NCBI GenBank assembly: GCA_965116075.1
Contig: OZ220467.1
Location: forward strand, 64,191-128,190
Length of the DNA: 64,000 bases
Direction of reading: 5' to 3'
Source: Thermodesulfobacteriota bacterium
GTDB taxonomy: Bacteria; Desulfobacterota_D; UBA1144; Nemesobacterales; Nemesobacteraceae
Below, piece after piece: positions 7,951-62,335 of this stretch. The notes below the pieces were generated by a model. It was not told the DNA's origin. It made no database searches and saw only the letters and a list, made by a program, of their open reading frames with translations. The position numbers and the translations under genes were made by a program. Each line of letters begins with the position of its first letter. Positions within the stretch are counted from its first letter, which is position 1.

Positions 7951-9735
7951 ATGAGTAGACAGATGTCTCAGGATAATAAGATTGATCTGCACGCGGTCAC
8001 AGTACGTCCTACCTATGGGGAACAGGAGCGTCGTCACTGGGACCATTTAGTCAGACTACATCACTATCTTCCATTCCATCGCGTGTTCGGCAAGGGATTG
8101 CGTCATGTAGCGGAAGTTGGGTCGCGTTGGGTCGCGCTTATTGGTTGGCAGGCAGGCGCATTCAAGTTAGCGGCCCGAGACCGCTGGATTGGCTGGAGCG
8201 CCGAGCAGCAGTTTGGACGCTTGCATCTGATTGCCAACAATGTGCGTTTTGTCATTCTGACACGGCAGCGGGTGGCGAACTTGGCATCGCGAGTGCTGGG
8301 TCTGAGTCTGAGGCGGCTGTCTTCGGACATGCAGACAGCGCACGGTTATCCAGTGTTTCTGGCTGAGACGTTCGTAGATATTTCACGTTTTAATGGTACT
8401 TGCTACCGGGCGGCCAACTGGCAGTCTTTCGGGCTAACGCGCGGGTTTGCCCGTGAGTCTGGAGGGTCTGCGCGGTGGCGCTATCATGGTCAACCCAAGG
8501 AGGTCTTCATGTTTAATCTCGTTGATAATGCTAAAGAAGTATTAAGTCAAGAGGAATTACCACCAGAATGGACCGGTGGGGTTCGTAAGGAGCCTATGAC
8601 GGCGCCACAGTTACGCAGTCTCAAAGATGTTCTAGGTAAGGTGCCTGAGTTCCGAAAGTCTCAAGGTAGACGCTATCCTCTTGTCACCGTGTTGGTTCTC
8701 GCTGTCGCCGCCCGTTTGGCTGGATACCGCGGGGTGTCCGCCATAGCGCAGTTCGCCCGACTACTTAGTCAGGAACAGCTTAAGGCCGTTGGAGCGTTCT
8801 ACAGTCCCAGTAAGAAATGCTACACTGCGCCGGTAATTGGCACCTTCCATAACATCTTCGCAAAACTGCCACCCGACACGCTTGATAAAGCGCTGAACCT
8901 GTGGGAAGCCCGCAAGACCTCGCCCGCAGCGCCGGTGGCGATGGACGGCAAGATGATTCGTGGCGCAGCCAAGCAGACTGAGGGTGGAATTAGAATGATG
9001 GTAGCTGCCCTCGAACATAACACCGGCGTGGTTCTCGGTCAACTAGCAATCAAAGAAAAGAGCAGTGAGATGCTAGTGGTACGCGACCTAGCCAATAAAC
9101 TCGACATTGCTGGTCGTACTGTCACTCTAGATGCGCTGCATGCCCAGCAGGATACGGCGCGCTGTCTGCTGGAAAATGGAGCCGACTATGTGATGACCGC
9201 CATCAAGGACAATCAAAGAACGATCAGCAAGGAAATAAAGGGATTGGACTTTGATGCTGTGCCAGGATGGACAACCGAAGATTATAAACATGGGAGGATT
9301 GAAGAACGGACCTGTTGGGTAGTAGACCTATCCGGTTCTGAGTGGGATGGACATGTAGGCATGCACGGACGGCGTCAAGCCATACGCATAGTCCGCAAGC
9401 GCACTGAGAAGAAGACAGGTAAAACCAGTTGCGAGACTGTCTATGCTCTGACCTCACTTGGCCCAGAGCAGGCTGGAGCCAAGGAGTTACTTGCTCTGGT
9501 TCGCAACCACTGGCACATTGAGAACCGTCTGCATTATGTGCGTGACTTCACCTACGATGAAGACCGTTGTCGGGTATCAAAAGGGTACTTACCGGAAAAT
9601 CTTTCCTGTCTGAGCAACGTTGCCATCGCCATAGTGCGTTGTGAAGGTAGATTCAACTATCTGCCTGAAGCTAACCGACACTATGCCGCCCGGCCTCAGG
9701 AAGCTATTGAACTTATAATGAAGCCGTTGAACTGA
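7951..9735 (+). CDS. ISAs1-family transposase with an N-terminal DUF4338-like extension (fusion protein)
   Basis: The C-terminal about 385 aa carry the ISAs1 signature NHWHIENRLHYVRDFTYDEDRCRV and the DDE_Tnp_1-associated N-domain (RRYPLVTVLVLAVAARLAGYRGVSAIAQF). The N-terminal about 190 aa (IGWSAEQQFGRLHLIANNVRFVIL...YRAANWQSFGLTRG) parallel the DUF4338 protein at 28303..29196. GC is markedly higher than the flanks. Confidence 0.8.
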   Translation: MSRQMSQDNKIDLHAVTVRPTYGEQERRHWDHLVRLHHYLPFHRVFGKGLRHVAEVGSRWVALIGWQAGAFKLAARDRWIGWSAEQQFGRLHLIANNVRFVILTRQRVANLASRVLGLSLRRLSSDMQTAHGYPVFLAETFVDISRFNGTCYRAANWQSFGLTRGFARESGGSARWRYHGQPKEVFMFNLVDNAKEVLSQEELPPEWTGGVRKEPMTAPQLRSLKDVLGKVPEFRKSQGRRYPLVTVLVLAVAARLAGYRGVSAIAQFARLLSQEQLKAVGAFYSPSKKCYTAPVIGTFHNIFAKLPPDTLDKALNLWEARKTSPAAPVAMDGKMIRGAAKQTEGGIRMMVAALEHNTGVVLGQLAIKEKSSEMLVVRDLANKLDIAGRTVTLDALHAQQDTARCLLENGADYVMTAIKDNQRTISKEIKGLDFDAVPGWTTEDYKHGRIEERTCWVVDLSGSEWDGHVGMHGRRQAIRIVRKRTEKKTGKTSCETVYALTSLGPEQAGAKELLALVRNHWHIENRLHYVRDFTYDEDRCRVSKGYLPENLSCLSNVAIAIVRCEGRFNYLPEANRHYAARPQEAIELIMKPLN

Positions 9736-9958
9736 ACGGTCGCACTTTACTCACAACCCCGCCGGATAGCCTGTGCACTGCTCAGGTCTGATACCCTACG
9801 CCTACTGGACGGACAAAGGCTGCGTACACTGTAAGATGAAGCCAAGTGGTACCCTTGTTTCTTGCTAAAACTCTCCATCTGAAGTCCAAATCACAATCTA
9901 AACACTCCAAAACCTCTATCTACCCAACCCTATACAAAGTCCCCGCTACGAAAACTGA

Positions 9959-10612
9959 ATGGTCCTGTCTACAAGCCCTGCAGATAGAGCTGAGTTACTT
10001 GGGCGAGTCCACTCTCTCATAAATAGTTTAGCTACCTGTGTTGCAGATAATAGTTTGAAACATAAAAACGTATACGCTTTCATCATGTCAACAAATCAAA
10101 AGGGCACCGTCTTAGCTAACGGAAACGACGCCAATCTAAATGGTCTTAATTTTGACCTAGAAGATAAAGAGTTGAAAGGAGAGGACAAAAAAGTAGTAAA
10201 CCTGTTCCGAAGCAGTCTGGATAAAAATGGTGACGGTAATCCTGTAGCAGGAGAGTCCGCTCATGTCACCTACAGATGGGACGACCCCCAAAAGAATGGA
10301 GATGAATACGATGGTGACTACCTTAAAGATAAAGTTGTTCCCGGCAATTCAACTAAAAAAGGTTATATTGAAGTTGCTTGGATATCCAAAGCGTTTGAGG
10401 ATGAATACGACAATGTCGAACTACAAAACGCTCCAGTTATTTTCGGTTCGGGATATTATCTCTCCGATCCCCCGGCGACTGGAATGACAAAGGATGATGA
10501 CGACGGATGTGCGCTTGCGGGAACAGAACATACATCTCACAGCGTATTAGTTAATCTATTGCTGATAAGTTCTGTTCTTCTCTCTGTTGTTTTCCTGAGA
10601 AGGCGTGCTTAA
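9959..10612 (+). CDS. sCache_2-like periplasmic sensor domain fragment with a C-terminal GC+TM+RRR sorting-signal-like tail; probably a remnant truncated at the 5' end
   Basis: Cache-like pattern YAFIMSTNQKGTVLANGNDANLNGLNFDLEDKELKG...HVTYRWDDPQ...KKGYIEVAWISK. C-terminus DDDDGCALAGTEHTSHSVLVNLLLISSVLLSVVFLRRRA. No signal peptide or start context. It sits directly 3' of the ISAs1 element. Confidence 0.4.
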   Translation: MVLSTSPADRAELLGRVHSLINSLATCVADNSLKHKNVYAFIMSTNQKGTVLANGNDANLNGLNFDLEDKELKGEDKKVVNLFRSSLDKNGDGNPVAGESAHVTYRWDDPQKNGDEYDGDYLKDKVVPGNSTKKGYIEVAWISKAFEDEYDNVELQNAPVIFGSGYYLSDPPATGMTKDDDDGCALAGTEHTSHSVLVNLLLISSVLLSVVFLRRRA

Positions 10613-27208: not shown

Positions 27209-27502
27209 GAGGCATTTGCACTGTCCAAAATGTATATGCATATCAAGAGGTTTTAGAAGGACATCCGAATAATACAGATAATTTGACCGAGGAATTTAGC
27301 GGTAGTGACTGTGAATGGATTGTTGCGTCTAAAGGTTGATAACTGGACGGAAATCAGCGGCAAATTCCGGGAAAATCAAGAAATTTGACCGTCAAATTAC
27401 TCAAATACGAATCAGTACGAACTGAAACAGTGGTGAACATACGTTCATACGTCCTCATTACGTCAAAACCACTCCCCCAAAAAACCTACAGCGCAAATGC
27501 CC
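27209..27502 (+). mobile_element. MITE-like deletion derivative of the IS5-family element (left 55 bp plus right about 240 bp, no transposase)
   Basis: Begins GAGGCATTTGCACTGTCC... and ends ...ACAGCGCAAATGCC. The internal part aligns with 33225..33469. Confidence 0.7.
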
Positions 27503-27516
27503 TTTCTCGCCAGTCC

Positions 27517-27554
27517 TTGACTTTGTAAGGGGGGGGGGGGGGTAAACTCAAAAG
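27517..27554 (+). promoter_or_regulatory. Conserved promoter-like module TTGACT-TTGTAA-(G)14-TAAACTCAAAAG, with a homopolymeric G tract between the -35-like and -10-like hexamers; candidate phase-variable promoter
   Basis: G run at about 27529..27542. The same architecture recurs at 42976..43012 (G13) and, on the minus strand, at 62294..62335 (G19). Confidence 0.45.
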
Positions 27555-27642
27555 ACTGACTTAAGAATGAGGGTTTTATAGCAAGGTTTTGCCAGATAAA
27601 TATCCATTTATAAATGGAACAACTTATAAGGGAGGTTGTATT

Positions 27643-28279
27643 ATGAAGTTACGCAGTTTATTAGTGATGTTGTTACTGCTCACTGGAGCAGTTTTCTTTG
27701 TAGCTTGTGAGGGCGAGCGAGGGCCGGCAGGTCCGAAAGGCGACAAAGGCGACCCAGGAAAGGACGGTGCGAGAGGGCCAGCAGGAAAGGATGGTGCGAG
27801 AGGGCCGGCAGGCACGAAAGGTGATGACCTAACAGGTGGTGATCCTAGATGCGACCGCAGTAATGGGATAGATGTAGCCGGTGGCGGTTTTCTGATCCAA
27901 GGAACCGATGATGACGATGTTATTTGCGGTAATAATGCTCAAAACGAAATTAGAGCTCAAGACGGTGATGATGTTGTTTACGCCGGCGCCGGAATGGACA
28001 AACTAGTAGGTGGTGCTGGTGATGACACGCTTTATGGTGAAGCTGGGAATGATTTTTTCTTCGTTCTGAATGAAACCGGCACTAATAAATTGGTTGGTGG
28101 GGACGGGTGGGATATGTTAGTGTTCGCTTCTGATGATCCAAATAGGCACGACATTACTCTTCCTGACGGCCACTATGCTGTTAGTCTTGACAACTTACAG
28201 ACCGAAACCATAACCTTTGATCTTTCCTCGGGGAGTTTTGACGGTACTTCCTTTGAAACTGGAACATTTGCGTTTGAAG
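27643..28279 (+). pseudogene. Collagen-like/RTX-repeat lipoprotein paralog, fragment 1 of 3, interrupted by an IS66-family insertion
   Basis: SD AAGGGAGG plus ATG. Signal/lipobox MKLRSLLVMLLLLTGAVFFVAC. G-X-Y repeats GERGPAGPKGDKGDPGKDGARGPAGKDGARGPAGTKGDD. RTX nonapeptides GGAGDDTLYG. The reading frame continues at 31201 once the IS is removed. Confidence 0.75.
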
Positions 28280-28302
28280 GTAAGCGTTCGTTCAAGGGGT
28301 GT

Positions 28303-29196
28303 TTATAGGGGGTTTGAGCGATTGAGGATTTGTCTCCAATTCCTGTGAAGCGGTCGTAGCCAAATGTCCTTTTTGGGTTTATCGCATCGGTTGTAACGAT
28401 CGTAGCGGCCACGCCCCTGTGTAGTTCCAACGCGTATCCATCCAGAAGCCCGGTATACGGTGCCTGTATATGTCGGAATTTGTACAAACGTCTCAATAAG
28501 CACAGGTGTGAAGTTGTATCGTTGCTTCCAATCCTTGGGCAAGCGGCGACAGACTACCGAGAGAATGTGTGACCCAAGATTGGGTATCTGTATCCATGGA
28601 AGAATCAGGAATCTGGGGTTGTCGATAACCAACGGTAAATTCTTTTCACGTTGCTCGGATGTCCATCCTATGAAGGTGTCACGCGGCGCAAGTCTCCATG
28701 CGGCGGTGGAGAACCCTAGCATGGCCAGCGGCGAACCGTGGCGGTCGCGCACTGCGTAGCGCATCTGAGCCCCGACTAATGTCTTATAACCTAAGTAGTG
28801 ATAACGAGCTACAAACTCGTTCCATAGTTTGCCTTGCCTAGTGCCACTGACAACAGTGTGAACCTGTAGTGGACGGACTTCGTCAAGGGTCTTGGGAACC
28901 GGTAGCATAGGCGGTTCGGTGTCCACTCCAAAGACAATAGGCTTGGCTCGGGGCGACACTCGGGTGGGTGTCGGTAACTTGATGATGCCATCCCTATGCA
29001 TGGATAGCATGGTAACTCTGGCCGTCATATCCTTGAGTCCGCCATCGGGCTTGTACCACCCAATACGTCTGCAAAACTCTCTGGACAGAGCAGTCCGGTT
29101 GAGCCGCTCGGGCCCGGCTATCAAAGCGCGTAGCAGTTTCATCTCCGCAGTCGTGAACTCACGCCCGTAGTAGCGGCACTCAACCTCGTCGCTCAT
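28303..29196 (-). CDS. DUF4338-domain protein with an N-terminal putative winged-helix region, encoded inside the IS66-family element downstream of the transposase
   Basis: IGWTSEQREKNLPLVIDNPRFLILPWIQIPNLGSHILS...YRASGWIRVGTTQG. Its start overlaps the transposase stop by 4 nt. Confidence 0.75.
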   Translation of the reverse strand: MSDEVECRYYGREFTTAEMKLLRALIAGPERLNRTALSREFCRRIGWYKPDGGLKDMTARVTMLSMHRDGIIKLPTPTRVSPRAKPIVFGVDTEPPMLPVPKTLDEVRPLQVHTVVSGTRQGKLWNEFVARYHYLGYKTLVGAQMRYAVRDRHGSPLAMLGFSTAAWRLAPRDTFIGWTSEQREKNLPLVIDNPRFLILPWIQIPNLGSHILSVVCRRLPKDWKQRYNFTPVLIETFVQIPTYTGTVYRASGWIRVGTTQGRGRYDRYNRCDKPKKDIWLRPLHRNWRQILNRSNPL

Positions 29197-31079
29197 CTCT
29201 TGGCGCCAAAGTCACGCAAACGTTGCTCACTCATTGACCATGGCAACCAAGGCGATAGATCTTTTGGAGGACTCCTGCCATCTTCCGCGCAGGCTCTCAA
29301 CCATCCCTTCAGCCAACTAAGAACGTCAATGCCATTCTTTGCGAGCGTACCCAGCACCGTGTATAGAATGGCTGATGTTCTTGCGCCCTCTTCACTGTCA
29401 GATCCAAAACTTACTTTACGGGCGATGGCCAGCCAGCGTAGCGCTCTCTCCGCAATATTGTTATCCATGGGAACTTGGGGATGTTCAACGAACACGCTCA
29501 GCCCTTCACGATGATTCATAAGCGACTTAAGTGGCTTTCGCTCACGCGCATCTTCCGCTAACTCGGATAATTCACTCTCAGCTTTGCTGAACAATGCGTC
29601 GCACGCTTTTTTCAACTCTATCTGTATTCGTTCAAACTCTACAGTATTACCTGAGACGTAGTGATCACACCGCTGTTTGTTTAACTTATACATCTCTGCA
29701 ATGCGTTCTATCCATTGTTCATTCCATTGCTCAAGCTGCTCGTCTCCTGCAGCGCATTTTATAAAATCTCTTCGTACATGCGCCCAACAAAAACACAGCG
29801 TCACCTTCTTATTGAGTTCTTCGAGGAAATCCCGAACCATCTTCTTATAGGAACCGTGGCGGTCGCAGACCAAGAAAATACAATCAACGCTGTCAATGAA
29901 TAGGACCTTTGCCGCCTCAGAACTACGCCAACGGTGTATATTGAATAAGACAGAGTCTTTGCTCACAGATGTCCATAGCCAAGCGCGTTGAGAACCCCCC
30001 ACTTCCTTCAGTGACTGGATTCGCCAACTTGTCTCGTCTGCATGACGCAATCTATCTTCGTTTTGATGGGCGAGAATAGCGTCATAGAGAGTCTCGAACA
30101 GAGGCAGCAGGCGCTTTGCGCTGTCCGCTAGAGTCCCTGCCGAAATCTTAAACCCGTGGTCGCTAAAGCATTTCTCTATACTACGGTAGGGCCTCAGGTT
30201 CCAGTAGCGCTCGTATATCAATAGAGCCCAGACACTGGTCCCATATGGCGTATGTTCAAACAGCCGCGCCGGCGCTGGCGCAGTCACATAGAGCGGAGAT
30301 GACTCACAGTCGCATGACCTACGATAACGGAAGCGGTTAATCCTGCGCGTGTGCGCCTTAACCTTAATCTCTGATATCTTCGAGGTCCGCTTCCCATTTG
30401 CAACGTACCGCTCCCCACAACAAGAACAGGTAATCTCATCATCTGACGGATGCCACGACTCTTCTACCACCTCAATATCTGGTCGGGCTGTACGACCATG
30501 ACCAGGCGCCCCGGGCTGTTGTCCTCGTCTACGCCCCGAAGGTGAACTCTTCTGCTTCTCACTACGACGTCCGTACAACGAATTGGACAGAACCTTACGG
30601 TTAGAAAGCAGGTTCTTGACCTGCTTCTTCAGCTCTGCATTCTCATTCTTCAAGCTGCCAATCTCCATCCGCAACGATACAATCGTACTACGCTTGCGCC
30701 TATCTACTCCAACCTCGTCTAGCAATGCTCTAAGTCGTTGTACTTCTTTGTCCAACGATAAAGCACTTTTCGCCACACGACTGATACGCTTTACTTCCTC
30801 ATTTTTCGCGTCCAACTGAGTACGCGCTTTCTGGCAATACCTTTTATACCTCCCCGCCCAAGACCGTTGCCGAGTTACTTCATGTTCTAATTCCTGATAA
30901 TCATGTTCTAACTTCTGATGTTTATGTTTTAACTCCTGATAAGCCGCTAGCAACTCTTCGTACGAAAACTTACAGTCTAACGAAGCGCGTCCCGACGTAG
31001 CCGGCATGCAATTGATGCATCCAGCGTCATCTTTATCCAATAACCTGACAACCCCGATCTCTTTGTCGTGAACAATCAT
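29193..31079 (-). CDS. IS66-family transposase (TnpC-like)
   Basis: 628 aa with an N-terminal coiled coil, a CxxC zinc finger (ITCSCCGERY), and HADETSWRIQ, CWAHVRRDF and MDNNIAERALR motifs. Confidence 0.85.
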   Translation of the reverse strand: MIVHDKEIGVVRLLDKDDAGCINCMPATSGRASLDCKFSYEELLAAYQELKHKHQKLEHDYQELEHEVTRQRSWAGRYKRYCQKARTQLDAKNEEVKRISRVAKSALSLDKEVQRLRALLDEVGVDRRKRSTIVSLRMEIGSLKNENAELKKQVKNLLSNRKVLSNSLYGRRSEKQKSSPSGRRRGQQPGAPGHGRTARPDIEVVEESWHPSDDEITCSCCGERYVANGKRTSKISEIKVKAHTRRINRFRYRRSCDCESSPLYVTAPAPARLFEHTPYGTSVWALLIYERYWNLRPYRSIEKCFSDHGFKISAGTLADSAKRLLPLFETLYDAILAHQNEDRLRHADETSWRIQSLKEVGGSQRAWLWTSVSKDSVLFNIHRWRSSEAAKVLFIDSVDCIFLVCDRHGSYKKMVRDFLEELNKKVTLCFCWAHVRRDFIKCAAGDEQLEQWNEQWIERIAEMYKLNKQRCDHYVSGNTVEFERIQIELKKACDALFSKAESELSELAEDARERKPLKSLMNHREGLSVFVEHPQVPMDNNIAERALRWLAIARKVSFGSDSEEGARTSAILYTVLGTLAKNGIDVLSWLKGWLRACAEDGRSPPKDLSPWLPWSMSEQRLRDFGAKR

Positions 31080-31200
31080 ATGACCGATGATAACCGATCA
31101 ATTAAGGAGTGACCAGTCTAAATGCAAAAAAATATTTAAGACGGGATTAACGAACGATTAATCAAGCAAACACCCCTTGAACGAACGCTTACGTTTGAAG

Positions 31201-31472
31201 GCATTGAGGACCTTTTCGTAGGTTACGGAGATGACACGATTACCGGAAACGACGAAGACAACTACATTAGGGCGGAGGGAGGAAACAACACTATCAACGG
31301 AAAAGCAGGCGACGATTTAATCCTCGGTGGTGAAGGAGACGATACCATTAACGCAGGGGCTGGCGACGATGTTTTTGACGGATGGGGAGGCAGTGATGTT
31401 CTCACTGGAGGCGCGGGAGCGGATATCTTTATTATTCAATATTCTGCCTCGCCCTCTGTTGGGATTATTAAA
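31201..31472 (+). pseudogene. Collagen-like/RTX-repeat lipoprotein paralog, fragment 2 of 3 (between the IS66 and IS5 insertions)
   Basis: Translates in frame as GIEDLFVGYGDDTITGNDEDNYIRAEGGNNTINGKAGDDLILGGEGDDTINAGAGDDVFDGWGGSDVLTGGAGADIFIIQ..., collinear with residues about 245-330 of the intact paralog. Confidence 0.7.
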
Positions 31473-33469
31473 GAGGCATTTGCGCTGTCCAAAAGATGTA
31501 TGTATATCAAGGGTTTTTAGAAGGGGTAAAAAACTTTTTACCCCAAAAATACCCCAAAAAAGCCCTAAAATCGGCTAATGTAAGCCAAAAACCACAAATT
31601 TCACCCCACATAAACCAGTTGCCGATTTCTCCCTGAAAAACTTGGGAAAGAGATAAATAACTTGCTGATATTACTTGCTTTACATTCTATATCAGTTATT
31701 ATTATTTCTAACATTCACACATTCTCTCTATAAGGAGCAAACAGTTGCTACAAAAAAAGTATTTACCATTCTCTTGGGAACAAATTGATGAGATTTCAGA
31801 CCTCAAACGTCTTGAGTTGGTTTTGGATGCTTTGCCTGATGAAGATATCATTAGGGCTTTGAAAGCTATGCGCAAGAACGGGCGTAATGAGTATCCGGTA
31901 GAACCAATGTGGAGGGCGACGATTGCTGGCGTAGTGTTTCAGCACGAATCCATAGAATCACTGATACGGGAACTGAACCGTAATTCTGAACTACTTAATA
32001 GATGTGGATTCTGTCCCATTCCCATACAACATATTGACAAGTACAGTCTTGAGCAGGATGAAAACGGCGGGAGACCTAAAGTTGTGGTTAAACAATTTCC
32101 TATCTACAGTACGGCGCCTAGCAGTCACAATTTCTCTCGGTTTCTATCAAACGTAGCGAAGTTGGAGCAACGCGACGGTCTGATTTCGAAAATGATGGAT
32201 AGAATGGGAGGAGAGTTGAGAGAATCGCTTCCGGATTTTGGGAAGCATCTAGGATATGACGGTAAGTCTATAGAGAGTAATTCCACAGGGAGAAAGAGCA
32301 ATAAGACAGGAGAGACATCCGATCCTGATGCGGACTGGGGAGTACATACTACGTCTGGGTTTAACTCTGCTACAGGCAAGGCATGGAAAAGCGTAAAGAG
32401 ATGGTTTGGTTACAAGTTGCATGTAATTGCCGATACCAAGTATGAGATACCGGTTGCGATGAGTCTTACAAAGGCATCTGTATCAGAATATAAGGAGTTG
32501 AATCGGATGATAGACAAGTTGTTTGCGCAGAACCCTGAGTTGGTGGAGCGATGCGAATATTTCAGCGCAGACAAGGGTCTTGACAGTGGGTCATTGAAGA
32601 AGAAGTTTTGGAACGAATATGGAACTGACCCTATAATTGGTATCCGAGAGATGTGGAGGGTGGAGTTGGAGAATCAGAACTATATTGCTGGGCAAAAGAT
32701 TATGCGGCCTTTGAGAGAAGATATTAACAACATATTCTACACAGAGAAGGGCGAGGTTTGGTGTCGTTGTCCTATAACCAAGGTAGAAAGTAAGCTGGTG
32801 GGTTGGGGATATGAAGAGGAGCGAGGTACTTTGAAGTTTCGTTGTCCTGCGGCAGCGCATAACCTGAATTGCGTAGGTAGGGAGAAGTGTCACAAAAATG
32901 CGGGTCGTAAGAACAGTGAATATGGCTTATCCATACGAGTTCCTTTGGACAAGGACCCTCGTATTTTTACCCCGACTCCGTATGGTTCAGTAACTTGGGA
33001 GCGGGAGTATAAGCTTAGGAATTCTATAGAACGTATAAACTCAAGGGTTGACAATAGTTTTAAGTTAGAGAGGCATTTTATCAGAGGCAAGGCTAAAATG
33101 ACTGCTCGTACAGGCTTAGCGTTGAGTGTGATGATGGCGTTAGCCATTGGACACATAAAGGCTGGAAGGGCTGATAAGATGAGGTCCCTTGTTTCTGGGT
33201 GTGCTCCTCGGGCTGGATAGGGTTTTTCTCCGAATACTACAGATAATTTGACCAGAGGAATTTAGCGGTAGTGGCCGTGAATGTATAGTTGCGTCTAAAG
33301 GCTGATAATTGGGCGAAAATCAGCATCATATCCTGCGAAAATCAAGGAATCTGACCGTCAGATTGTTCAAATACGAATCAGTACGAACTGAGACAGTGCT
33401 GAACATGCCTTCATACGTCCTCATTACGTCTAAAATCACTCTCAAAAACCTTACAGCGCAAATGCCTCA
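31473..33469 (+). mobile_element. IS5/IS1182-family insertion sequence (2.0 kb). Perfect 16-bp terminal inverted repeats GAGGCATTTGCGCTGT. Flanking direct repeat ATTAAA.
   Basis: Terminal repeats at 31473..31488 and 33454..33469. Excision restores the reading frame of the disrupted gene. It is the source of the MITE family. Confidence 0.8.
31745..33220 (+). CDS. IS5/IS1182-family DDE transposase (DUF772-like N-terminal domain)
   Basis: 491 aa with NGRNEYPVEPMWRATIAGVVFQHESIESLIRELNRNSELLNRCGF and C-terminal ERHFIRGKAKMTARTGLALSVMMALAIGHIKAGRAD. TTG start. Confidence 0.8.
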   Translation: MLQKKYLPFSWEQIDEISDLKRLELVLDALPDEDIIRALKAMRKNGRNEYPVEPMWRATIAGVVFQHESIESLIRELNRNSELLNRCGFCPIPIQHIDKYSLEQDENGGRPKVVVKQFPIYSTAPSSHNFSRFLSNVAKLEQRDGLISKMMDRMGGELRESLPDFGKHLGYDGKSIESNSTGRKSNKTGETSDPDADWGVHTTSGFNSATGKAWKSVKRWFGYKLHVIADTKYEIPVAMSLTKASVSEYKELNRMIDKLFAQNPELVERCEYFSADKGLDSGSLKKKFWNEYGTDPIIGIREMWRVELENQNYIAGQKIMRPLREDINNIFYTEKGEVWCRCPITKVESKLVGWGYEEERGTLKFRCPAAAHNLNCVGREKCHKNAGRKNSEYGLSIRVPLDKDPRIFTPTPYGSVTWEREYKLRNSIERINSRVDNSFKLERHFIRGKAKMTARTGLALSVMMALAIGHIKAGRADKMRSLVSGCAPRAG

Positions 33470-33475
33470 TTAAAG

Positions 33476-33726
33476 ACTTTGACTTGACAGAAGACAAAAT
33501 CTATTTCAGAGATTTTCCAACGAAAGCAGGGACTAATAGAGATCTATCCGTTACAAGCGGTCGGATTTCGGTTGGAACGACACCGTTTGTTGAAATACAG
33601 GTGAACAATACAGCAGACAACGACAAAGCGAATAGTATAAAAAATGACTCAACAAGATATAGGTTTGTAGAAGCAGATTTTGATACCGATACAAAAAAAA
33701 GAGTTTACACTTTTACAGACAACTAA
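33476..33726 (+). pseudogene. Collagen-like/RTX-repeat lipoprotein paralog, fragment 3 of 3 (C-terminal)
   Basis: DFDLTEDKIYFRDFP...RYRFVEADFDTDTKKRVYTFTDN* parallels the C-terminus of the intact paralog (DFDLTEDMIYFRNF...YRFVNSSFGPKTRTYTFTDN*). Confidence 0.7.
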
Positions 33727-34102: not shown

Positions 34103-34726
34103 GAGGCATTTGCGTTGTCCAAAATGTGTATACATATCAAGGGGTTTTAGAAGAGTAAAAAACTTTTTACGTAAGCGTTCGTTCAAAGGGGTGTTTATAG
34201 AGGGTTTGAGCGATTGAGGATTTGTCTCCAATTTCTGTGAAGCGGTCGTAGCCAAATGTCCTTTTTGGGTTTATCGCGTCAATTGTACCGGTTGGAGCGA
34301 CCACGTTCCTGTGTAGTTCCAACGCGTATCCATCCAGAGGCACGGTATACGGTACCTGTATATGTCGGAATTTGTACAAATGTCTCAACCCAAGTTTACC
34401 CCCAAAAAGCCCTAAAATCGGTTGACATAGCCTCTGTAAAATTCCCCAAAAAAAATAATTTGACGATGTCATTTGTTTTAATGTTATCATAAAGGTGTCT
34501 TCATAGGTTGAAATTATAATTTGCTAACAGAATCTTCTCCTCTTCTATGAGAGTAAGTCAATGTTATTTTTGGTCATCCTCAAGGAAAAGCCCAAAAAAT
34601 CATTGTAGCGTAACTACCTCAAGTTAATGACAAATTTATCATCTACAAAAAAACCATAACGGTTCCACAATCATCAAAAGAAATCAGCATCAAGCATCAC
34701 TACAGCGCAAATGCTCCACATGCGGT
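34103..34726 (+). mobile_element. MITE-B copy (inverted relative to 5346..5811) carrying a nested about 215-bp fragment of the IS66-like element end (about 34163..34378). It is inserted into a paralog of the small ORF at 44405.
   Basis: Left repeat GAGGCATTTGCGTTGT at 34103, right ...ACAGCGCAAATGCTC at about 34726. The internal GTAAGCGTTCGTTCAAAGGGGTGTTTATAGAGGG... block matches 28280..28500. Confidence 0.6.
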
Positions 34727-37018: not shown

Positions 37019-37771
37019 CTAAATTTTTGTATCAAGAAAATCCCTGAAGTGGCTTATAGTCGTTATCTCTGCTTCCGCTACGGTTCCCGTAAACATGATT
37101 TTGCCTTCATCAAGAAAGGCCACTCTATCTGAAACCTCAAATGCAGCGCCTATGTCATGAGTTATAACCACTCCGGTTATGCCTAGACGGTCTCTCATAC
37201 TTTTTATTATCCCAACGATTCTTCTAACGTTGGGAGGGTCAAGCCCAGTGGTGGGTTCGTCATAGAGAAGAATCTGAGGACGCGTGGCTATAGCTCTTGC
37301 CAACGCCACTCTTTTTTTCATACCCCCGCTAAGTTCCCCCGGATATTTATCCTCTATCCCCGGAAGATCAACAAGTTCCAGATTGCAAGCTACTTCCTCT
37401 TCTATACGTTGCGGGGGAAAATCTGAATTTTCAATCAACGGATAGGCGATATTCTCAAAGACCGTGAGCGAATCAAAAAGCGCTGAGTGCTGAAACAACA
37501 TCCCTATTTCTTTTCTTATTTTTACCAGTTCCCTTTCGGTCATCCCCAAAGTGTCTTCTCCTAGAATTACCACCTTCCCTCTGTCGGGTTTTACAAGACC
37601 GGTTATTTCCTTTAACAGAACGCTTTTACCAACCCCACTTTCCCCTAGAACAGTGAAGATCTCTCCCCGCTTCACCGAAAAGTTTATTCCACAGTGCACG
37701 GGCTTGCCGTCAAATGCCTTATACACATCTTCCATCACTATTACGTTTTCCGACATGGAAATTTTCTCCAT
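37019..37771 (-). CDS. ABC transporter ATP-binding protein, MlaF-like
   Basis: Walker A GESGVGKS, signature LSGGMKKRVALARA, about 250 aa. Confidence 0.75.
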   Translation of the reverse strand: MEKISMSENVIVMEDVYKAFDGKPVHCGINFSVKRGEIFTVLGESGVGKSVLLKEITGLVKPDRGKVVILGEDTLGMTERELVKIRKEIGMLFQHSALFDSLTVFENIAYPLIENSDFPPQRIEEEVACNLELVDLPGIEDKYPGELSGGMKKRVALARAIATRPQILLYDEPTTGLDPPNVRRIVGIIKSMRDRLGITGVVITHDIGAAFEVSDRVAFLDEGKIMFTGTVAEAEITTISHFRDFLDTKI

Positions 37772-41992: not shown

Positions 41993-42267
41993 TTCATTAT
42001 CTCCTGAGCAAATTTAAGGCGGAAATTGTACTGACTATTAGATACAAAGTCAAAAAACTCGCGAACCATGCAAGGAGATTGATTACAAGGAATAAGAGGT
42101 CTTAACCACCAAACAAAGACGCAGGAGAAAATTGCTATAGTTCTTGTTGTCTTTTGTCTATTGATTTCTATACTTGTCAAAATGTTTTATGTTTTAAGTA
42201 CTCTTTTATTTCCTTAGTAGTTACTGTCTTGATCATAATTGGGGACAAATAAATACTTTAGTCTGAA

Positions 42268-42662
42268 CGTAAAAGTTCGTTCAATGGGTGTTTATAGAGG
42301 GTTTGAGCGGTTGATGATTTGTCTCGAATTCCTGTGAAGCGGTCGTAGCGACCGCGCCCTGCGTAGTTCCAACGCGTATCCATCCAGAAGCCCGGTATAC
42401 GGTGCCTGTATATGTCGGAATTTGTACAAACGCCTCAATAAGCACGGGTGTGACGTTGTATCGTTGGGTTCACTCCTTGGGCAAGCGGCGACAGACTACC
42501 GAAAGAATGTGTGACCCAAGATTGGGTATTTGTATCAATGGAAGAATCAGGAACCGGGGGTTGTCAATAACCAACGGTAGATTCTTTTCACGTCGCTCGG
42601 ACGTCCATCCTATGAAGGTATCGCGCGGCGCAAGTCTCCGTGCGGTGGTGGAGAAACCTTTG
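42268..42662 (+). mobile_element. Partial copy (about 395 bp) of the IS66-like element end, including the 3' third of the DUF4338 gene
   Basis: Aligns with 28280..28680. The ORF-track 76-aa fragment ...RLAPRDTFIGWTSERREKNLPLVIDNPRFLILPLIQIPNLGSHILSVVCRRLP lies here. Confidence 0.65.
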
Positions 42663-42958
42663 GACACTAAAGGCTGGAAGGGCTGACAAAATGAGGTCAC
42701 TTGTTTCTGAGTGTCTTAATCGGGCTCCGAATAATACAGATAATTTGACCAGAGGAATTTAGCGGCAGTGACCGTGAATGGGTTGTTGCGTCCAAAGGCT
42801 GATAATTATGCGGAAATCAACGGCAAATTGCGGGAAAATCAAAAAATCTGCCCATCAGATTGCTCAAATACGAATCAGTACGAACTGAAACAGTGTTGAA
42901 CATGCGTTCATACGTCCTCGTCTAAAACCACTCCCAAAAGCCCTACAGCGCAAATGCC
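42663..42958 (+). mobile_element. Remnant of the IS5-family element right end (transposase 3' tail plus right terminal region), abutting the promoter of the intact collagen/RTX gene
   Basis: ...IKAGRADKMRSLVSECLNRA-like tail, then sequence that aligns with 33225..33469 and ends ACAGCGCAAATGCC. Confidence 0.65.
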
Positions 42959-42975
42959 TTCTTTCTCGCTAGTTC

Positions 42976-43012
42976 TTGACTTTGTGAGGGGGGGGGGGGG
43001 TAAACTCAAAAG
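42976..43012 (+). promoter_or_regulatory. Conserved promoter-like module TTGACT-TTGTGA-(G)13-TAAACTCAAAAG; candidate phase-variable promoter of the intact collagen/RTX gene
   Basis: G run at about 42988..43000. The about 130 bp running from this module to the ATG are near-identical to 27517..27645. Confidence 0.45.
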
Positions 43013-43100
43013 ACTAATTTAAGAATGAGGGTTCTATAACAAGGTTTTGCCAGATAAATGGTCATTTATAAATGGAACAACTTATAAGGGAGGTTGTAAT

Positions 43101-44306
43101 ATGAAGTTAGGTAGTTTATTAGTGATGTTGTTACTGCTTACTGGAACAGTTTTCTTTGTAGCTTGTGAAGGGGAAAGAGGTCCAGCGGGCGAAAAAGGTG
43201 ACAAGGGAGACACAGGTGAGAAAGGTGAGAAAGGCGACCCAGGGAAAGACGGAATACCTGGGCCAGCGGGGTCAGATGGGAGAGATGGAGCAGATGGAGG
43301 AGATGGAGCAGATGGTACTCCATTTGGCGATCCGAGATGCGATGTTATCAATGGAATACAGGGGCTATTAGGAGTTGTTAATGGCGCAAGCATTGCTGAG
43401 GGTGCCATCTCTGGGACTGCTGATGACGATGTTATTTGTGGAACTCGGGTTTTTAACTATATACGAGGGCAAGGCGGTGATGATATTGTTTACGGTGGAG
43501 ATGGTGGTGACATACTAGTAGGCGGTGCTGGTGATGATACGCTTTACGGTGAAGGTGGAGATGACCATTTTTTCCTTAGAGCTGAAAGTGGTGCTAATAA
43601 ACTGGTAGGCGGTGAGGGTAAGGACGCTGTTTACCTCGGTGGCCCTCCAACTTTTGGGTTACTTAATCTTGTTACGAACAATATAGGCTTTTTTTGGGGA
43701 ACAGGCTCAATAGTGGTTTCTGCTAATGTAACCTTAGATCTTTCTTCGGGGACTTTAGATGGTGCTGCTAATTCTATCAACGGAAATGGAACGTTTACAT
43801 TTGAAGGCATTGAGGATATTCGGGGCGGTAGTGGTGCTGAAACGCTTATCGGAAACGAGTTAAATAATTTCATCATTGGAAATGGCGGAAACGATACTAT
43901 TAACGGGAAAGCGGGAGATGATACTCTTCTCAGTGGTAACGAAAACGATACTATTGACGGCGGGGCGGGAGATGATGTTATTTACGGGAATCAGGGTGCC
44001 GACACTTTTACCGGTGGCGCTGGCTCTGACATTTTCCTAATTCGTAAAGGCTTTGGGACTAAGGTTATTGCAGATTTTGATTTGACGGAAGACATGATCT
44101 ATTTCAGAAATTTTACAGCAGGCGGGGAAACAATAACCGTTGGGAGCGGTAAGTTGACTGTCGGCGGAACTGAGGTTGTGATACATGGTGCGAACGGTCA
44201 ACCGGATAACACAAAGGCGGGAAAGATAAACAGCGAAAATAAATATAGGTTTGTAAATTCATCGTTTGGTCCAAAGACACGAACCTACACTTTTACAGAC
44301 AACTAA
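43101..44306 (+). CDS. Secreted lipoprotein with collagen-like G-X-Y repeats and RTX (hemolysin-type calcium-binding) nonapeptide repeats; intact paralog
   Basis: SD GGGAGG 7 nt upstream. Lipobox FFVAC. 17 G-X-Y triplets (GERGPAGEKGDKGDTGEKGEKGDPGKDGIPGPAGSDGRDGADGGDGADGTP). Several GGxGxDxUx repeats (GGAGDDTLY, GGAGDDVIY, GGAGSDIFL). Confidence 0.8.
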   Translation: MKLGSLLVMLLLLTGTVFFVACEGERGPAGEKGDKGDTGEKGEKGDPGKDGIPGPAGSDGRDGADGGDGADGTPFGDPRCDVINGIQGLLGVVNGASIAEGAISGTADDDVICGTRVFNYIRGQGGDDIVYGGDGGDILVGGAGDDTLYGEGGDDHFFLRAESGANKLVGGEGKDAVYLGGPPTFGLLNLVTNNIGFFWGTGSIVVSANVTLDLSSGTLDGAANSINGNGTFTFEGIEDIRGGSGAETLIGNELNNFIIGNGGNDTINGKAGDDTLLSGNENDTIDGGAGDDVIYGNQGADTFTGGAGSDIFLIRKGFGTKVIADFDLTEDMIYFRNFTAGGETITVGSGKLTVGGTEVVIHGANGQPDNTKAGKINSENKYRFVNSSFGPKTRTYTFTDN

Positions 44307-44333
44307 AGAATCTTAATGCGGAGTTTTATAAAG

Positions 44334-44372
44334 CCCCAGCAGGTTATTCGCCTGCGGGGCTTTTTTTTTGAT
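44334..44372 (+). terminator. Rho-independent terminator after the collagen/RTX gene
   Basis: AAAGCCCCAGCAGG-TTATTCG-CCTGCGGGGCTTTTTTTTT. Confidence 0.55.
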
Positions 44373-44404
44373 ATAATGGCAACAACACTTAAGGAGGATA
44401 TACG

Positions 44405-44572
44405 ATGAGTTTAGCAGAAAGACTTCAGCAGTTAATAGATTCGCATGAGAGCAGGATAAGAGATTATGAGAGTAGAATTGAGAAAATGGAAAATGATATA
44501 AGCAAGAATAAAGGTGGTATTGATAAGTATCATTCGTTTATTGACTTAGAGAAAAAACAATCAGCGTGATCA
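44405..44572 (+). CDS. Small coiled-coil protein (about 55 aa), conserved downstream of both collagen/RTX paralogs
   Basis: AGGAGG SD then ATG. MSLAERLQQLIDSHESRIRDYESRIEKMENDISKNKGGIDKYHSFIDLEKKQSA. A homologous start (MSLAKDF...) at 34088 is cut by the MITE at 34103. Confidence 0.3.
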
Positions 44573-44694
44573 AGAAGTTCCTATAACTCTGGACCTGACT
44601 ATCTGGAGACCTTTGCCCGTATTGTACGTGGTGGATAGATCCACAACTAAAAAGTTTTCGTTCTCCCAAAAAAACACCCAAGAGACTACCTCAT

Positions 44695-44765
44695 GAGAGC
44701 GGTTTTTTACTCCTTCTAAAACCCCTTGATATACATACACCCGCCCATTAAACAGCCGTAAAAGA
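44695..44765 (-). mobile_element. Degenerate remnant of an IS5-family/MITE left end
   Basis: GTTTTTTACTCCTTCTAAAACCCCTTGATATACATACAC aligns with 5753..5795 (AGTTTTTTACCCTTTCTAAAAACCCTTGATATGCATACAT), but the terminal repeat is degenerate. Confidence 0.35.
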
Positions 44766-46468: not shown

Positions 46469-46482
46469 TTTTTCTGCGAAAT

Positions 46483-47150: not shown

Positions 47151-47154
47151 CTAG

Positions 47155-61644: not shown

Positions 61645-62214
61645 TTACCTTTTTTCACAAACTGAACTGGTAGTTATGCGCATGGTGCTTTCTACTTCTC
61701 CGTTTTCATAAGCCACCAACACATCTCCAGCCGAAGCAACCAATTGACCTGCTTGGTTTATTCTGTAAGGGGAACACACTACGCTATAGGGAATAGCATC
61801 GAATCGGGCGCAGAGCATATTGTCAGATGCACGAACAACCCAGTGCCCGGCAATAGCAGGGGGTTTTGTGCCCACTCTGCATTCATCCCATTGTTCTGCA
61901 GCCCATGCAGGTTGCTCTATGTGGGGGACATAAAAAGTTCCATCAGAATTATAGGTTTCGACATTTGTGGATCCGTCAGAATCTTCGCAATCCCACGTTC
62001 CTACTAGTTCTGTAGGGTGCGTACCACTAGGCAAAGGTTCCACCACTGCAACTGCAGCGCAGTCATACTCTCCAATTGGTAGTTCTTCCAGTACATCACC
62101 ATTATCATCGCCACCATTACCACCGCCAGCTGGTATTTCTACACCATCATCACCTCCGCCACCACAAGCAACAGAAACAAGTGCCAAGCCTATAATCAAA
62201 ACAATCTTTTTCAT
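61645..62214 (-). CDS. Lipoprotein (189 aa) with a Gly/Asp-rich linker, preceded by the same poly-G promoter module as the collagen/RTX genes
   Basis: SD AGGAGG plus ATG. Lipobox LVSVAC, then GGGGDDGVEIPAGGGNGGDDNGD. Confidence 0.6.
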   Translation of the reverse strand: MKKIVLIIGLALVSVACGGGGDDGVEIPAGGGNGGDDNGDVLEELPIGEYDCAAVAVVEPLPSGTHPTELVGTWDCEDSDGSTNVETYNSDGTFYVPHIEQPAWAAEQWDECRVGTKPPAIAGHWVVRASDNMLCARFDAIPYSVVCSPYRINQAGQLVASAGDVLVAYENGEVESTMRITTSSVCEKR

Positions 62215-62293
62215 TTCAAATCCTCCTAGTTTAATGGGCGTAGGAAAACCTTGCTAGACATCCTTCACCTCATATATCATTATATCATTACAC

Positions 62294-62335
62294 CTCTGAG
62301 CTTACCCCCCCCCCCCCCCCCCCTACAAAGTCAAT
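62294..62335 (-). promoter_or_regulatory. Conserved promoter-like module on the minus strand: TTGACT-TTGTA-(G)19-TAAGCTCAGAG
   Basis: Poly-C run of 19 at about 62305..62323 on the plus strand. Downstream (minus strand) are a TATAAT-like element and a conserved AGCAAGGTTTTCC block, as at 27575 and 43040. Confidence 0.45.

What the first reader, a model, noticed from the sequence alone, without database searches (positions are those of the whole stretch)
27517..27554. Conserved promoter module with long poly-G tracts (G14, G13, G19) upstream of three surface-lipoprotein genes: candidate phase-variation switches
The same about 35-bp architecture, TTGACT-TTGTA(A)-(G)n-TAARCTCARAG, occurs three times: at 27517..27554, at 42976..43012, and reverse-complemented at 62294..62335. 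Each time it lies about 90-100 bp upstream of a gene for a signal-peptide/lipobox protein. A conserved AGCAAGGTTTT(G/C)CC block sits about 45 bp further downstream in all three. The homopolymer occupies the spacer between a perfect -35-like TTGACT and a -10-like TAAACT/TAAGCT. With n = 14, 13 or 19 the spacer is 20, 19 or 24 nt, whereas about 11 G would give the optimal 17 nt. Slipped-strand changes in n would therefore switch promoter strength on and off. Three tracts of at least 13 nt in 64 kb, all in equivalent positions, are very unlikely by chance in a roughly 44% GC genome. They point to a co-regulated, stochastically switching set of surface proteins.
Basis: partly seen in the sequence, partly recalled or inferred. 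Interest (0 to 1): 0.78.

Follow-up and report, generated by a model that had tools for sequence, protein, structure and literature searches.

The report
Poly-G promoter switches on lipoprotein genes
Three long runs of G sit in the spacer of otherwise normal promoters in front of surface-lipoprotein genes of an uncultured Dadabacteria-like bacterium, and they belong to a family of at least 32 such genes that probably switch on and off one by one as the G run slips in length, a trick well known from pathogens but not reported for this lineage.

Summary
G14 (27529-27542), G13 (42988-43000) and G19 (62305-62323, minus strand) are the only homopolymers longer than 9 nt in the window. Each lies between TTGACT and TAAACT/TAAGCT, 84-94 nt upstream of a lipoprotein start codon.

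The promoter reading is supported by comparison. The rplM promoter in the same window is TTGACT-TTGTA...(17 nt)-TACAAT. In a second strain (98-99% identical) all seven other promoters found have the module, with G12 to G15. In a second genus (GltX 83% identical) two family genes have TTGACT-6 nt-G9-TAGAAT in otherwise unrelated flanks.

The downstream genes belong to a family of collagen-like/RTX lipoproteins, at least 32 paralogues on one 2.39-Mb contig, with a near-invariant signal peptide.

Tract length differs between paralogues and at one of three loci compared between strains (G19 versus G15). That was the only homopolymer discrepancy in about 29.5 kb of aligned sequence.

Switching itself is not shown. 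No reads or expression data were available, no tract gives the optimal 17-nt spacer, and four of five comparisons of the same locus between assemblies showed equal lengths.

Verdict: a new member of a known kind (porA, tp0126, vlp type).

The parts
27517..27548 (+). Promoter 1: -35 TTGACT (27517-27522), filler TTGTAA, G14 (27529-27542), -10 TAAACT (27543-27548). The spacer is 20 nt.
   Evidence: The orthologue in strain A2 (L121 19091-19104, minus strand) also has G14.
27549..27642 (+). 5' leader of gene 1. It holds the block AGCAAGGTTTTGC (27580-27592), the palindrome CCATTTATAAATGG and the SD GGGAGG (27630-27635).
27643..28308 (+). Gene 1, the 5' part of a collagen-like/RTX lipoprotein gene. 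It is truncated by an IS66-type insertion (about 28281-31182). Its remaining parts lie at 31183-31474 and 33469-33725, separated by an IS4/IS5-type element (31475-33468).
   Evidence: Pfam Collagen and HemolysinCabind. Strain A2 has an intact 386-aa gene whose DNA aligns to window 28280-26237, 31474-31183 and 42093-33469.
42976..43006 (+). Promoter 2: -35 TTGACT (42976-42981), filler TTGTGA, G13 (42988-43000), -10 TAAACT (43001-43006). The spacer is 19 nt.
   Evidence: No other sigma-70-like site lies on the + strand upstream of the gene.
43101..44306 (+). Gene 2, an intact 401-aa lipoprotein. It has the signal peptide MKLGSLLVMLLLLTGTVFFVAC, about 16 collagen G-X-Y triplets and RTX calcium-binding repeats. 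A terminator-like hairpin lies at 44339-44355, followed by a T run.
62299..62334 (-). Promoter 3: -35 TTGACT (62334-62329), filler TTGTA, G19 (62323-62305), -10 TAAGCT (62304-62299). The spacer is 24 nt.
   Evidence: The orthologue in strain A2 has G15 in otherwise identical flanks.
61645..62214 (-). Gene 3, a 189-aa lipoprotein (MKKIVLIIGLALVSVAC|GGGGDDG...). It has no Pfam match and is unrelated to genes 1 and 2.
62243..62255 (-). Block AGCAAGGTTTTCC in the leader of gene 3, shared with the leaders of the family genes.
42025..42053 (-). Reference promoter of the rplM-rpsI operon: TTGACT-ttgtatctaatagtcag (17 nt)-TACAAT. It has the same TTGACTTTGTA start as the poly-G promoters.
27209..27500 (+). 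Short (MITE-like) copy of the IS with terminal repeats GAGGCATTTGCRCTGT...ACAGCGCAAATGCC. Its right end lies 16 nt upstream of the -35 of promoter 1. A partial copy (42252-42959) ends the same distance upstream of promoter 2.

Best explanation
Each tract is the variable part of the spacer of a sigma-70-type promoter, built as TTGACT, then 5-7 nt, then Gn, then TAnnnT. The promoter drives a single lipoprotein gene through a leader of about 85-95 nt.

Poly-G runs of 9-19 nt gain and lose units by slipped-strand mispairing during replication. [quoted passage not shown]

About 11-12 G would give the 17-18 nt spacing that RNA polymerase uses, as in the rplM promoter of the same genome. Shorter or longer tracts weaken or silence the promoter.

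Every member of a family of at least 32 collagen-like/RTX lipoprotein genes, and at least one unrelated lipoprotein gene, carries its own tract. Each gene should therefore switch independently, so a population displays a changing mosaic of surface lipoproteins.

Shown here: the anatomy, its conservation, its family-wide distribution and length polymorphism. Inferred: slippage as the cause, dependence of transcription on n, and surface exposure of the proteins.
For: 1. The tracts are real and far beyond chance.

2. The hexamers are what is conserved.
- Ten species-A copies keep TTGACT and TAA(A/G)(C/A)T, while the filler varies: TTGTAA, TTGTGA, TTATGA, TTATTA, TATGTGA, TTGTAAA, TTGTA.
- In a second genus (GltX 83% identical), two family genes have TTGACT-TACCAC-G9-TAGAAT and TTGACT-TAAATA-G9-TAGAAT in otherwise unrelated flanks.

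3. There is an internal reference. The rplM promoter is TTGACT-17 nt-TACAAT and begins TTGACTTTGTA.

4. No other sigma-70-like site lies between the tract and gene 2.

5. Every family gene whose upstream region could be read has a tract: 8 of 8 loci in species A and 2 of 2 in species B.

6. The tract is the length-variable element.
- Observed n values were 12 five times, 13 twice, 14 three times, and 15 and 19 once each.
- Site 3 is G19 in the window and G15 in strain A2, with identical flanks.
- This was the only homopolymer-length difference in about 29.5 kb of aligned sequence. None of the window's shorter (8-9 nt) homopolymers inside the aligned stretches differed.

7. The genes look like a variable surface family. 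There are 41 paralogues at 43-62% identity, with a near-invariant lipoprotein signal peptide and variable collagen and middle segments. At least 32 of them lie on the 2,386,527-bp contig that also holds this window's rpsI, SodA, GltX and gene 3.

8. The related strain has other contingency-type tracts, for example G12 inside the 5' part of a C5 DNA-methylase gene.

9. The mechanism has tested precedents. In N. meningitidis porA and T. pallidum tp0126 a poly-G between -35 and -10 gives optimal transcription at 17-nt spacing (PMC7864442). In M. hyorhinis vlp genes a poly-A tract in the promoter does the switching (PMC10502178).
Against: - No read-level or expression data were available, so switching is inferred.
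- None of the 12 spacers measured is 17 nt. Species A has 18-24 nt and species B has 15 nt.
- The modal lengths (G12 in strain A2, G9 in species B) could mean that a particular length is selected rather than drifting.
- Four of five comparisons of the same locus between assemblies gave equal lengths: site 1 at 14/14, the site-2 promoter at 13/13, and two species-B loci at 9/9. The two species-B comparisons are the same strain in two samples, so they carry little weight.
- Transcription start sites are not mapped.
- Consensus lengths of long homopolymers in long-read assemblies can be off by a base or two.
- Sites 1 and 2 and the family copies share ancestry, so their similarity alone is not independent evidence. 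Independence comes only from site 3, rplM and species B.
Confidence: 0.7

Rival explanations
1. The tract is a fixed spacer element. It would be a constant structural or protein-binding part of the promoter, for example a rigid poly(dG).poly(dC) segment or the site of a regulator. A particular length would be kept by selection, and expression would be controlled conventionally rather than by slippage.
For: - Lengths cluster: five of eight tracts in strain A2 are G12, and both species-B tracts are G9.
- Four of five comparisons of the same locus between assemblies gave identical lengths.
- No tract gives a 17-nt spacer, so plain sigma-70 geometry does not obviously hold.
- Extra conserved elements lie downstream: CTCARAG and AGCAAGGTTTT.
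Against: - Lengths do differ. Paralogues with near-identical flanks have 12-14, and one orthologous pair has 19 versus 15.
- The two genera differ by 3 nt or more in total spacer, which argues against one required geometry.
- Runs of 12-19 G are intrinsically unstable in all systems studied (established knowledge).
- A fixed spacer would not need to be a homopolymer.
Confidence: 0.15
2. The tract acts mainly as a recombination or transposition hot spot. The homopolymer would serve as a junction where promoter halves, genes and IS elements are joined, and any effect on transcription would be secondary.
For: - In strain A2 an ISAs1-like element abuts a tract twice. In one case the -35 half and G13 are followed directly by the IS end. 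In the other the opposite IS end is followed directly by G12 and the -10 half.
- The same IS makes an 11-bp target duplication in the window. This fits insertion into a G tract with a duplication made of Gs.
- An IS or MITE end lies 15-17 nt upstream of the -35 in six copies.
- The site-2 segment is absent at the syntenic place in strain A2.
Against: - Most copies have intact promoters with both hexamers.
- The position of the tract exactly between conserved -35 and -10 hexamers in two genera is not explained by a junction role.
- IS insertions here look like damage: two cut-off promoters and one split gene.
Confidence: 0.08
3. The tracts are an assembly or sequencing artefact, or the reported lengths are meaningless.
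For: Long homopolymers are error-prone. The contig names look like long-read metagenome assemblies, and one comparison contig has only 2-3x coverage.
Against: - The tracts occur at homologous positions in four independent assemblies: the window's genome, ERZ24894574, ERZ25068685 (an 83x circular contig) and ERZ26693861.
- They always lie between the same conserved hexamers.
- No other homopolymer discrepancy was found in about 29.5 kb compared between strains.
Confidence: 0.03

Closest known systems
Neisseria meningitidis porA and Treponema pallidum tp0126 (poly-G between the -35 and -10 hexamers)
   Same: A G homopolymer lies in the promoter spacer of an outer-surface protein gene. Transcription is optimal when the spacer is 17 nt, and the tract varies by slippage (PMC7864442).
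   Different: - Those tracts are 8-11 G and oscillate around the optimum. Here they are 12-19 G, or 9 G in the sister genus, and none sits at 17 nt.
- Those are single genes. Here the tract is the standard promoter of a family of at least 32 members.
- There is no sequence homology between the genes.
- The organism here is an uncultured Dadabacteria-like lineage, not an animal pathogen with a known host.
Mycoplasma hyorhinis vlp variable lipoprotein family (poly-A in each promoter)
   Same: It is a multigene family of surface lipoproteins with a conserved signal peptide and variable, repetitive mature regions. Each gene is a separate transcription unit with its own homopolymer in the promoter, which gives independent on/off switching (PMC10502178).
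   Different: - The tract is poly-A rather than poly-G.
- The vlp family has a handful of clustered genes. Here there are dozens of genes dispersed around the chromosome.
- The proteins are unrelated: here they have collagen triplets plus an RTX beta-roll.
- The host bacterium is a wall-less Mollicute, whereas this one is a diderm (YidC with a periplasmic domain, a TonB-dependent receptor, and MlaE; MlaF is my assignment of the ABC-type ATPase ORF at 37019-37771, not a tool result).
T. pallidum tprE/G/J and tprL, and Bordetella fim2/fim3 (homopolymer upstream of or overlapping promoter elements, acting together with an activator)
   Same: A long G or C tract in the promoter region of surface-protein paralogues modulates transcription.
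   Different: In those systems the tract lies upstream of the start site or next to an activator site (CRP-like Tp0262; BvgA, from my own knowledge), rather than simply between the two hexamers. No activator site was identified here.

Membership tests
Promoter-spacer homopolymer phase variation (porA / tp0126 / vlp type) | A homopolymer long enough to slip (about 8 nt or more) | tested here: met
   G14, G13 and G19 in the window. G9-G15 in related genomes.
Promoter-spacer homopolymer phase variation (porA / tp0126 / vlp type) | The tract lies between the -35 and -10 hexamers of the gene's promoter | tested here: met
   Tested in silico only. TTGACT and TAnnnT flank every tract and are conserved across paralogues and two genera, while the filler varies. 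The rplM promoter gives the 17-nt reference. No start site has been mapped.
Promoter-spacer homopolymer phase variation (porA / tp0126 / vlp type) | Tract length differs between strains or isolates at the same locus | tested here: inconclusive
   Site 3 is G19 versus G15. Site 1 is 14/14, the site-2 promoter is 13/13, and two species-B loci are 9/9.
Promoter-spacer homopolymer phase variation (porA / tp0126 / vlp type) | Length heterogeneity within one population (reads or clones) | not testable with these tools
   No reads were available. Only consensus contigs could be read.
Promoter-spacer homopolymer phase variation (porA / tp0126 / vlp type) | Expression depends on tract length, with an optimum near 17-nt spacing | not testable with these tools
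   This needs reporter fusions or transcript data. Observed spacers are 15 and 18-24 nt, never 17.
Promoter-spacer homopolymer phase variation (porA / tp0126 / vlp type) | The controlled gene encodes a surface or host-interaction protein | tested here: met
   By sequence only. The products have a signal peptide with a lipobox Cys, plus Pfam Collagen and HemolysinCabind domains. Surface exposure has not been shown.
Variable surface lipoprotein multigene system (Vlp-like organisation) | Many paralogues with a conserved signal peptide and a variable mature part, each with its own switch | tested here: met
   There are 41 paralogues with a near-invariant signal peptide. A tract was found upstream of 10 of the 10 family loci that could be read.
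Variable surface lipoprotein multigene system (Vlp-like organisation) | Sequence homology to Mycoplasma Vlp/Vsp proteins | tested here: not met
   Pfam finds only Collagen and HemolysinCabind. The resemblance is one of organisation, not of descent.
Promoter G-quadruplex element | A G run able to form a three-tetrad intramolecular quadruplex (15 or more consecutive G, or four G3 blocks) | tested here: not met
   Only the site-3 tracts (G19, G15) reach 15. The others are G9-G14.

The most novel reading that the evidence does not exclude
An uncultured Dadabacteria-like lineage may keep a largely silent archive of several dozen collagen-like/RTX lipoprotein genes, each behind its own long poly-G promoter spacer. 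In this reading nearly all copies are held off-optimum: too long in one genus and too short in the sister genus. Rare slippage events would then light up one or a few genes at a time. An ISAs1-like element that inserts into the G tracts would act as a second, irreversible layer of silencing. This would be a combinatorial surface-variation system of pathogen type, and on an unusually large scale, in a candidate phylum with no cultured member and no known need for immune evasion. It would point to strong selection from a host or from phages.
Probability: 0.3. Interest if true: 0.72.

Novelty: new member of a known kind. Interest (0 to 1): 0.55.

Why it matters
Contingency loci are textbook for a few animal pathogens but are hardly documented in uncultivated environmental or symbiotic phyla.

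Here one recognisable promoter design marks a family of at least 32 members in a 2.4-Mb genome, and it persists in a sister genus. That gives two things:
- a sequence signature for finding switchable surface genes in metagenome-assembled genomes;
- a hint that these bacteria face fluctuating selection on their surface, from a host, from phages or from grazers.

The idea is directly testable, because the existing long-read data sets should contain per-read tract lengths.

It also carries a practical warning. Tract lengths, and therefore on/off calls, in consensus assemblies are population averages.

Tried and rejected
- **Genome-collection scan.** None had a poly-G spacer.
- **First metagenome scan.** The strict pattern found nothing, so the lineage is absent from that collection.
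- **Second metagenome scan.** Of the 120 loci, 84 had pure-G spacers, but they come from unrelated organisms. This shows the design is widespread, not that these organisms are relatives.
- **Exact-protein look-ups.** Look-ups of gene 2, rplM, the MBL-fold protein and P0001 found nothing. The DNA of the 2.39-Mb contig, probably the window's own genome, could not be fetched. A genome-wide census of tracts was therefore impossible.
- **Cobalamin-riboswitch promoter as a second reference.** I considered TTGACA-16-TATCAT. I rejected it because the Rfam match starts inside the -10 hexamer, so the assignment is uncertain.
- **5' leader as a structured RNA.** The alifold consensus is weak (-9.7 kcal/mol, covariation term -0.15). 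The site-3 leader folds no better than shuffled sequence (z = 0.09). It was not pursued.
- **Promoter as part of the adjacent IS/MITE.** I rejected this because the complete IS copy (31475-33468) has unrelated DNA directly beyond its end. In addition, two family promoters lack the IS end (L122 and L128b).
- **Literature.** No paper links Dadabacteria with phase variation.

Full report
**1. The observation**

The three sites read as follows.
- Site 1: TTGACT-TTGTAA-G14-TAAACTCAAAAG, at 27517-27554.
- Site 2: TTGACT-TTGTGA-G13-TAAACTCAAAAG, at 42976-43012.
- Site 3, minus strand: TTGACT-TTGTA-G19-TAAGCTCAGAGG, at 62334-62293.

A scan for homopolymers of 8 or more found nothing else longer than 9 nt in the 64 kb, which is 44.2% GC. 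The two-flank pattern matches only these three places, and none of 100 shuffles gave a match.

The downstream block is AGCAAGGTTTTGC at site 1, AACAAGGTTTTGC at site 2 and AGCAAGGTTTTCC at site 3.

Each site precedes an SD and ATG by 84-94 nt. Each product begins with a signal peptide that ends in a lipobox cysteine.

**2. What the genes are**

Genes 1 and 2 are paralogues. They have a lipoprotein signal peptide, about 13-16 collagen G-X-Y triplets, and then RTX calcium-binding repeats. Pfam Collagen and HemolysinCabind are both above threshold. Gene 3 encodes an unrelated 189-aa lipoprotein with no Pfam match.

A protein search with gene 2 found 41 full-length relatives at 43-62% identity.
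- At least 32 lie on one 2,386,527-bp contig.
- Others lie on four contigs of ENA sample ERZ24894574.
- A further 13 or so, at 34-41% identity, lie on a 1,980,752-bp circular contig.

The family has a near-invariant N-terminus, MKLRNLLVMLLLLTGAVLFVAC|EGERGPAG. The collagen and middle segments are variable.

Exact look-ups place this window's rpsI, SodA, GltX and gene-3 proteins on the 2.39-Mb contig. That contig is therefore probably the source genome, which I call species A.

GltX is 83% identical to the copy on the 1.98-Mb genome (species B). It is 65-70% identical to proteins that NCBI names Candidatus Dadabacteria.

**3. Comparative anatomy of the promoter**

ENA contigs ctg6754l, ctg6213l and ctg6363l form strain A2. 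They are 98.0-99.5% identical to the window over about 29.5 kb. They carry these copies of the module.

| Locus | Sequence or relation | Tract |
|---|---|---|
| L121 | orthologue of site 1 | G14 |
| L119 | orthologue of site 3 | G15 |
| L120 | TTGACT-TTGTAAA-Gn-TAAAAT | G12 |
| L122 | TTGACT-TTGTAA-Gn-TAAACT | G12 |
| L123a | TTGACT-TTATGA-Gn-TAAACT | G12 |
| L123b | TTGACT-TTATTA-Gn-TAAACT, cut off from its gene by an IS66-type element in the leader | G14 |
| L128b | TTGACT-TATGTGA-Gn-TAAACT | G12 |

There are also two half-promoters abutted by an IS.

Every species-A family gene whose upstream region could be read has a tract (8 of 8 loci).

Species B has TTGACT-TACCAC-G9-TAGAAT and TTGACT-TAAATA-G9-TAGAAT upstream of two family genes. 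Their flanks and leaders are unrelated to those of species A.

What survives divergence is therefore the -35 hexamer, a filler of 5-7 arbitrary nucleotides, the G run, and a -10 hexamer directly after it. That is the signature of functional promoter hexamers.

An internal reference exists. The rplM-rpsI promoter in the window is TTGACT-ttgtatctaatagtcag (17 nt)-TACAAT, and it shares the TTGACTTTGTA start. No other sigma-70-like site lies upstream of gene 2 on its strand.

**4. Spacer arithmetic**

With a 6-nt filler, n = 11 gives 17 nt.

| Copy | Spacer (nt) |
|---|---|
| Site 1 | 20 |
| Site 2 | 19 |
| Site 3 | 24 |
| L121 | 20 |
| L119 | 20 |
| L120 | 19 |
| L122 | 18 |
| L123a | 18 |
| L123b | 20 |
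| L128b | 19 |
| Species B, both loci | 15 |

None is 17. Two are 18, which is within the usual working range. The rest would be weak or silent by E. coli rules (established knowledge). This fits a family kept mostly off, but it is equally what a sceptic would point to.

**5. Evidence for length instability**

Within the promoter alignment, the tract is the only length-variable element of the core.

Between the two strains I listed every indel in the aligned 29.5 kb.
- Most indels lie in one divergent patch (55180-55300), a few lie in 54260-54650, and some are effects of alignment ends.
- A 2-nt indel lies just after the -10 of site 1.
- The only homopolymer-length difference is G19 versus G15 at site 3.
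- None of the window's shorter (8-9 nt) homopolymers inside the aligned stretches differs, so the assemblies are not generally unreliable at homopolymers.

Against this, site 1 is 14/14 and the site-2 promoter matches L123c at 13/13. The two species-B loci are 9/9 in two samples, but those are the same strain, one of them at only 2-3x coverage.

Strain A2 also has tracts of a contingency type elsewhere.
- G12 lies in the 5' part of a C5 DNA-methylase gene.
- G10 lies near the end of an ORF.
- G11 is intergenic.

**6. Mobile DNA around the loci**

An IS4/IS5-type element with ends GAGGCATTTGCGCTGT...ACAGCGCAAATGCCTC occurs in several forms.
- A full copy lies at 31475-33468, with its transposase at 31745-33220.
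- MITE-like or deleted copies lie at 27209-27500, about 46482-47101, 5346-5811 and 34103-34714.
- A fragment lies at 42252-42959.

Its right end lies 15-17 nt upstream of the -35 hexamer in six family promoters but not in two others. It was therefore probably duplicated together with the gene, and it is not part of the promoter.

Gene 1 is not intact in this genome. Strain A2 has a continuous 386-aa gene. Its DNA aligns to window 28280-26237, 31474-31183 and 33469 onward. This means an IS66-type insertion at about 28281-31182 and the IS4/IS5-type element at 31475-33468 split the gene.

The whole site-2 segment (42094-44755) is missing at the syntenic place in strain A2.

An ISAs1-like element lies at window 7526-9967 and has an 11-bp target duplication, TCTACAAGCCC. 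In strain A2 it abuts G13 on one side of one promoter and G12 on the other side of another promoter. This is what insertion into a G tract with a duplication made of Gs would produce.

**7. Mechanism**

The best-supported reading is a slipped-strand, spacer-length switch of the kind tested in N. meningitidis porA and T. pallidum tp0126. In those, poly-G lies between -35 and -10 and the optimum is 17 nt (PMC7864442).

The organisation resembles the M. hyorhinis vlp family, where each lipoprotein gene has its own promoter homopolymer (PMC10502178).

The promoter anatomy is shown by comparison. Slippage and the dependence of expression on n are inferred.

Because each gene has its own tract, switching should be independent, not co-regulated.

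The rival readings are scored in their own section: a fixed structural spacer, a recombination or IS hot spot, and an artefact. The artefact reading fails because the tracts recur at homologous positions in four independent assemblies.

**8. How common the design is**

Of the 120 loci, 84 had pure-G spacers from many unrelated organisms. They include a human-gut group with TTGACT-TTTTTC-G9/G10/G11-TAAAAT. The design is therefore widespread in nature, which supports the verdict 'known kind'.

**9. Verdict**

The feature is real. The promoter interpretation is well supported, and phase variation is probable but untested.

It is a new member of a known kind. It is notable for three things: the size of the gene family, the unusually long tracts, and its occurrence in an uncultured Dadabacteria-like lineage. 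No paper in the library links that lineage with phase variation.

Noticed in passing
window 28281-31182 and 31475-33468 (gene 1 pieces at 27643-28280, 31183-31474, 33469-33725): The site-1 lipoprotein gene is split by two IS insertions: an IS66-type element with a DruA-domain ORF, and an IS4/IS5-type element with an 8-bp overlap at its junctions. The orthologue in a 99%-identical strain is intact (386 aa).
   Followed up: yes
window 7526-9967; L123 20812 onward; L128 up to 1456: An ISAs1-like IS (594-aa transposase with DruA, DDE_Tnp_1_assoc and DDE_Tnp_1 domains) has an 11-bp target duplication, TCTACAAGCCC, in the window. In the related strain the same IS directly abuts poly-G tracts of two lipoprotein promoters. 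This suggests insertion into the G runs.
   Followed up: partly
window 27209-27500, 31475-33468, 46482-47101, 5346-5811, 34103-34714, 42252-42959: A family of full, deleted and MITE-like copies of one IS with terminal repeats GAGGCATTTGCGCTGT / ACAGCGCAAATGCCTC. Its right end sits 15-17 nt upstream of the -35 hexamer in six lipoprotein promoters.
   Followed up: partly
L122 4451-4462 (minus strand), strain A2: A G12 tract lies inside the 5' part of a C5 cytosine DNA-methylase gene, next to a Vsr gene. This is a candidate phase-variable methyltransferase.
   Followed up: no
L121 7450-7459 and 8730-8740, strain A2: A G10 lies at the end of a 244-aa ORF, after GGAGGAGGAGGTGGTGGT repeats. A G11 is intergenic. 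Both lie in a 3-kb segment that replaces the window's site-2 region (42094-44755) at the syntenic place.
   Followed up: no
window 42025-42053 (minus strand): The rplM-rpsI promoter, TTGACT-17 nt-TACAAT, begins with the same TTGACTTTGTA as the poly-G promoters. This may be an extended -35 region typical of this organism.
   Followed up: partly
window 47142-47352: A cobalamin riboswitch (Rfam RF00174, 68 bits) lies upstream of a TonB-dependent receptor gene (47502-49436) and directly after a deleted IS copy.
   Followed up: no
window 27600-27642 and 43058-43100, and the family leaders: The leaders contain a small hairpin, CCAUUUAU..AAAUGG, with C-to-U changes that keep G.U pairs. A possible pairing, ACAACUU/AGGUUGU, covers the SD. 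No real covariation was found.
   Followed up: partly
L133, L135, L137, L175, L183 and others (human-gut metagenome contigs): An unrelated promoter group, TTGACT-TTTTTC-G9/G10/G11-TAAAAT, lies upstream of small Cys-rich ORFs. Tract length differs between contigs. This is another candidate spacer switch.
   Followed up: no
window 28303-29196: A 297-aa ORF with the Pfam DruA (Druantia) domain is encoded next to the IS66 transposase. It recurs with IS66 copies in strain A2, so it appears to be an IS passenger or accessory gene rather than part of a defence system.
   Followed up: no
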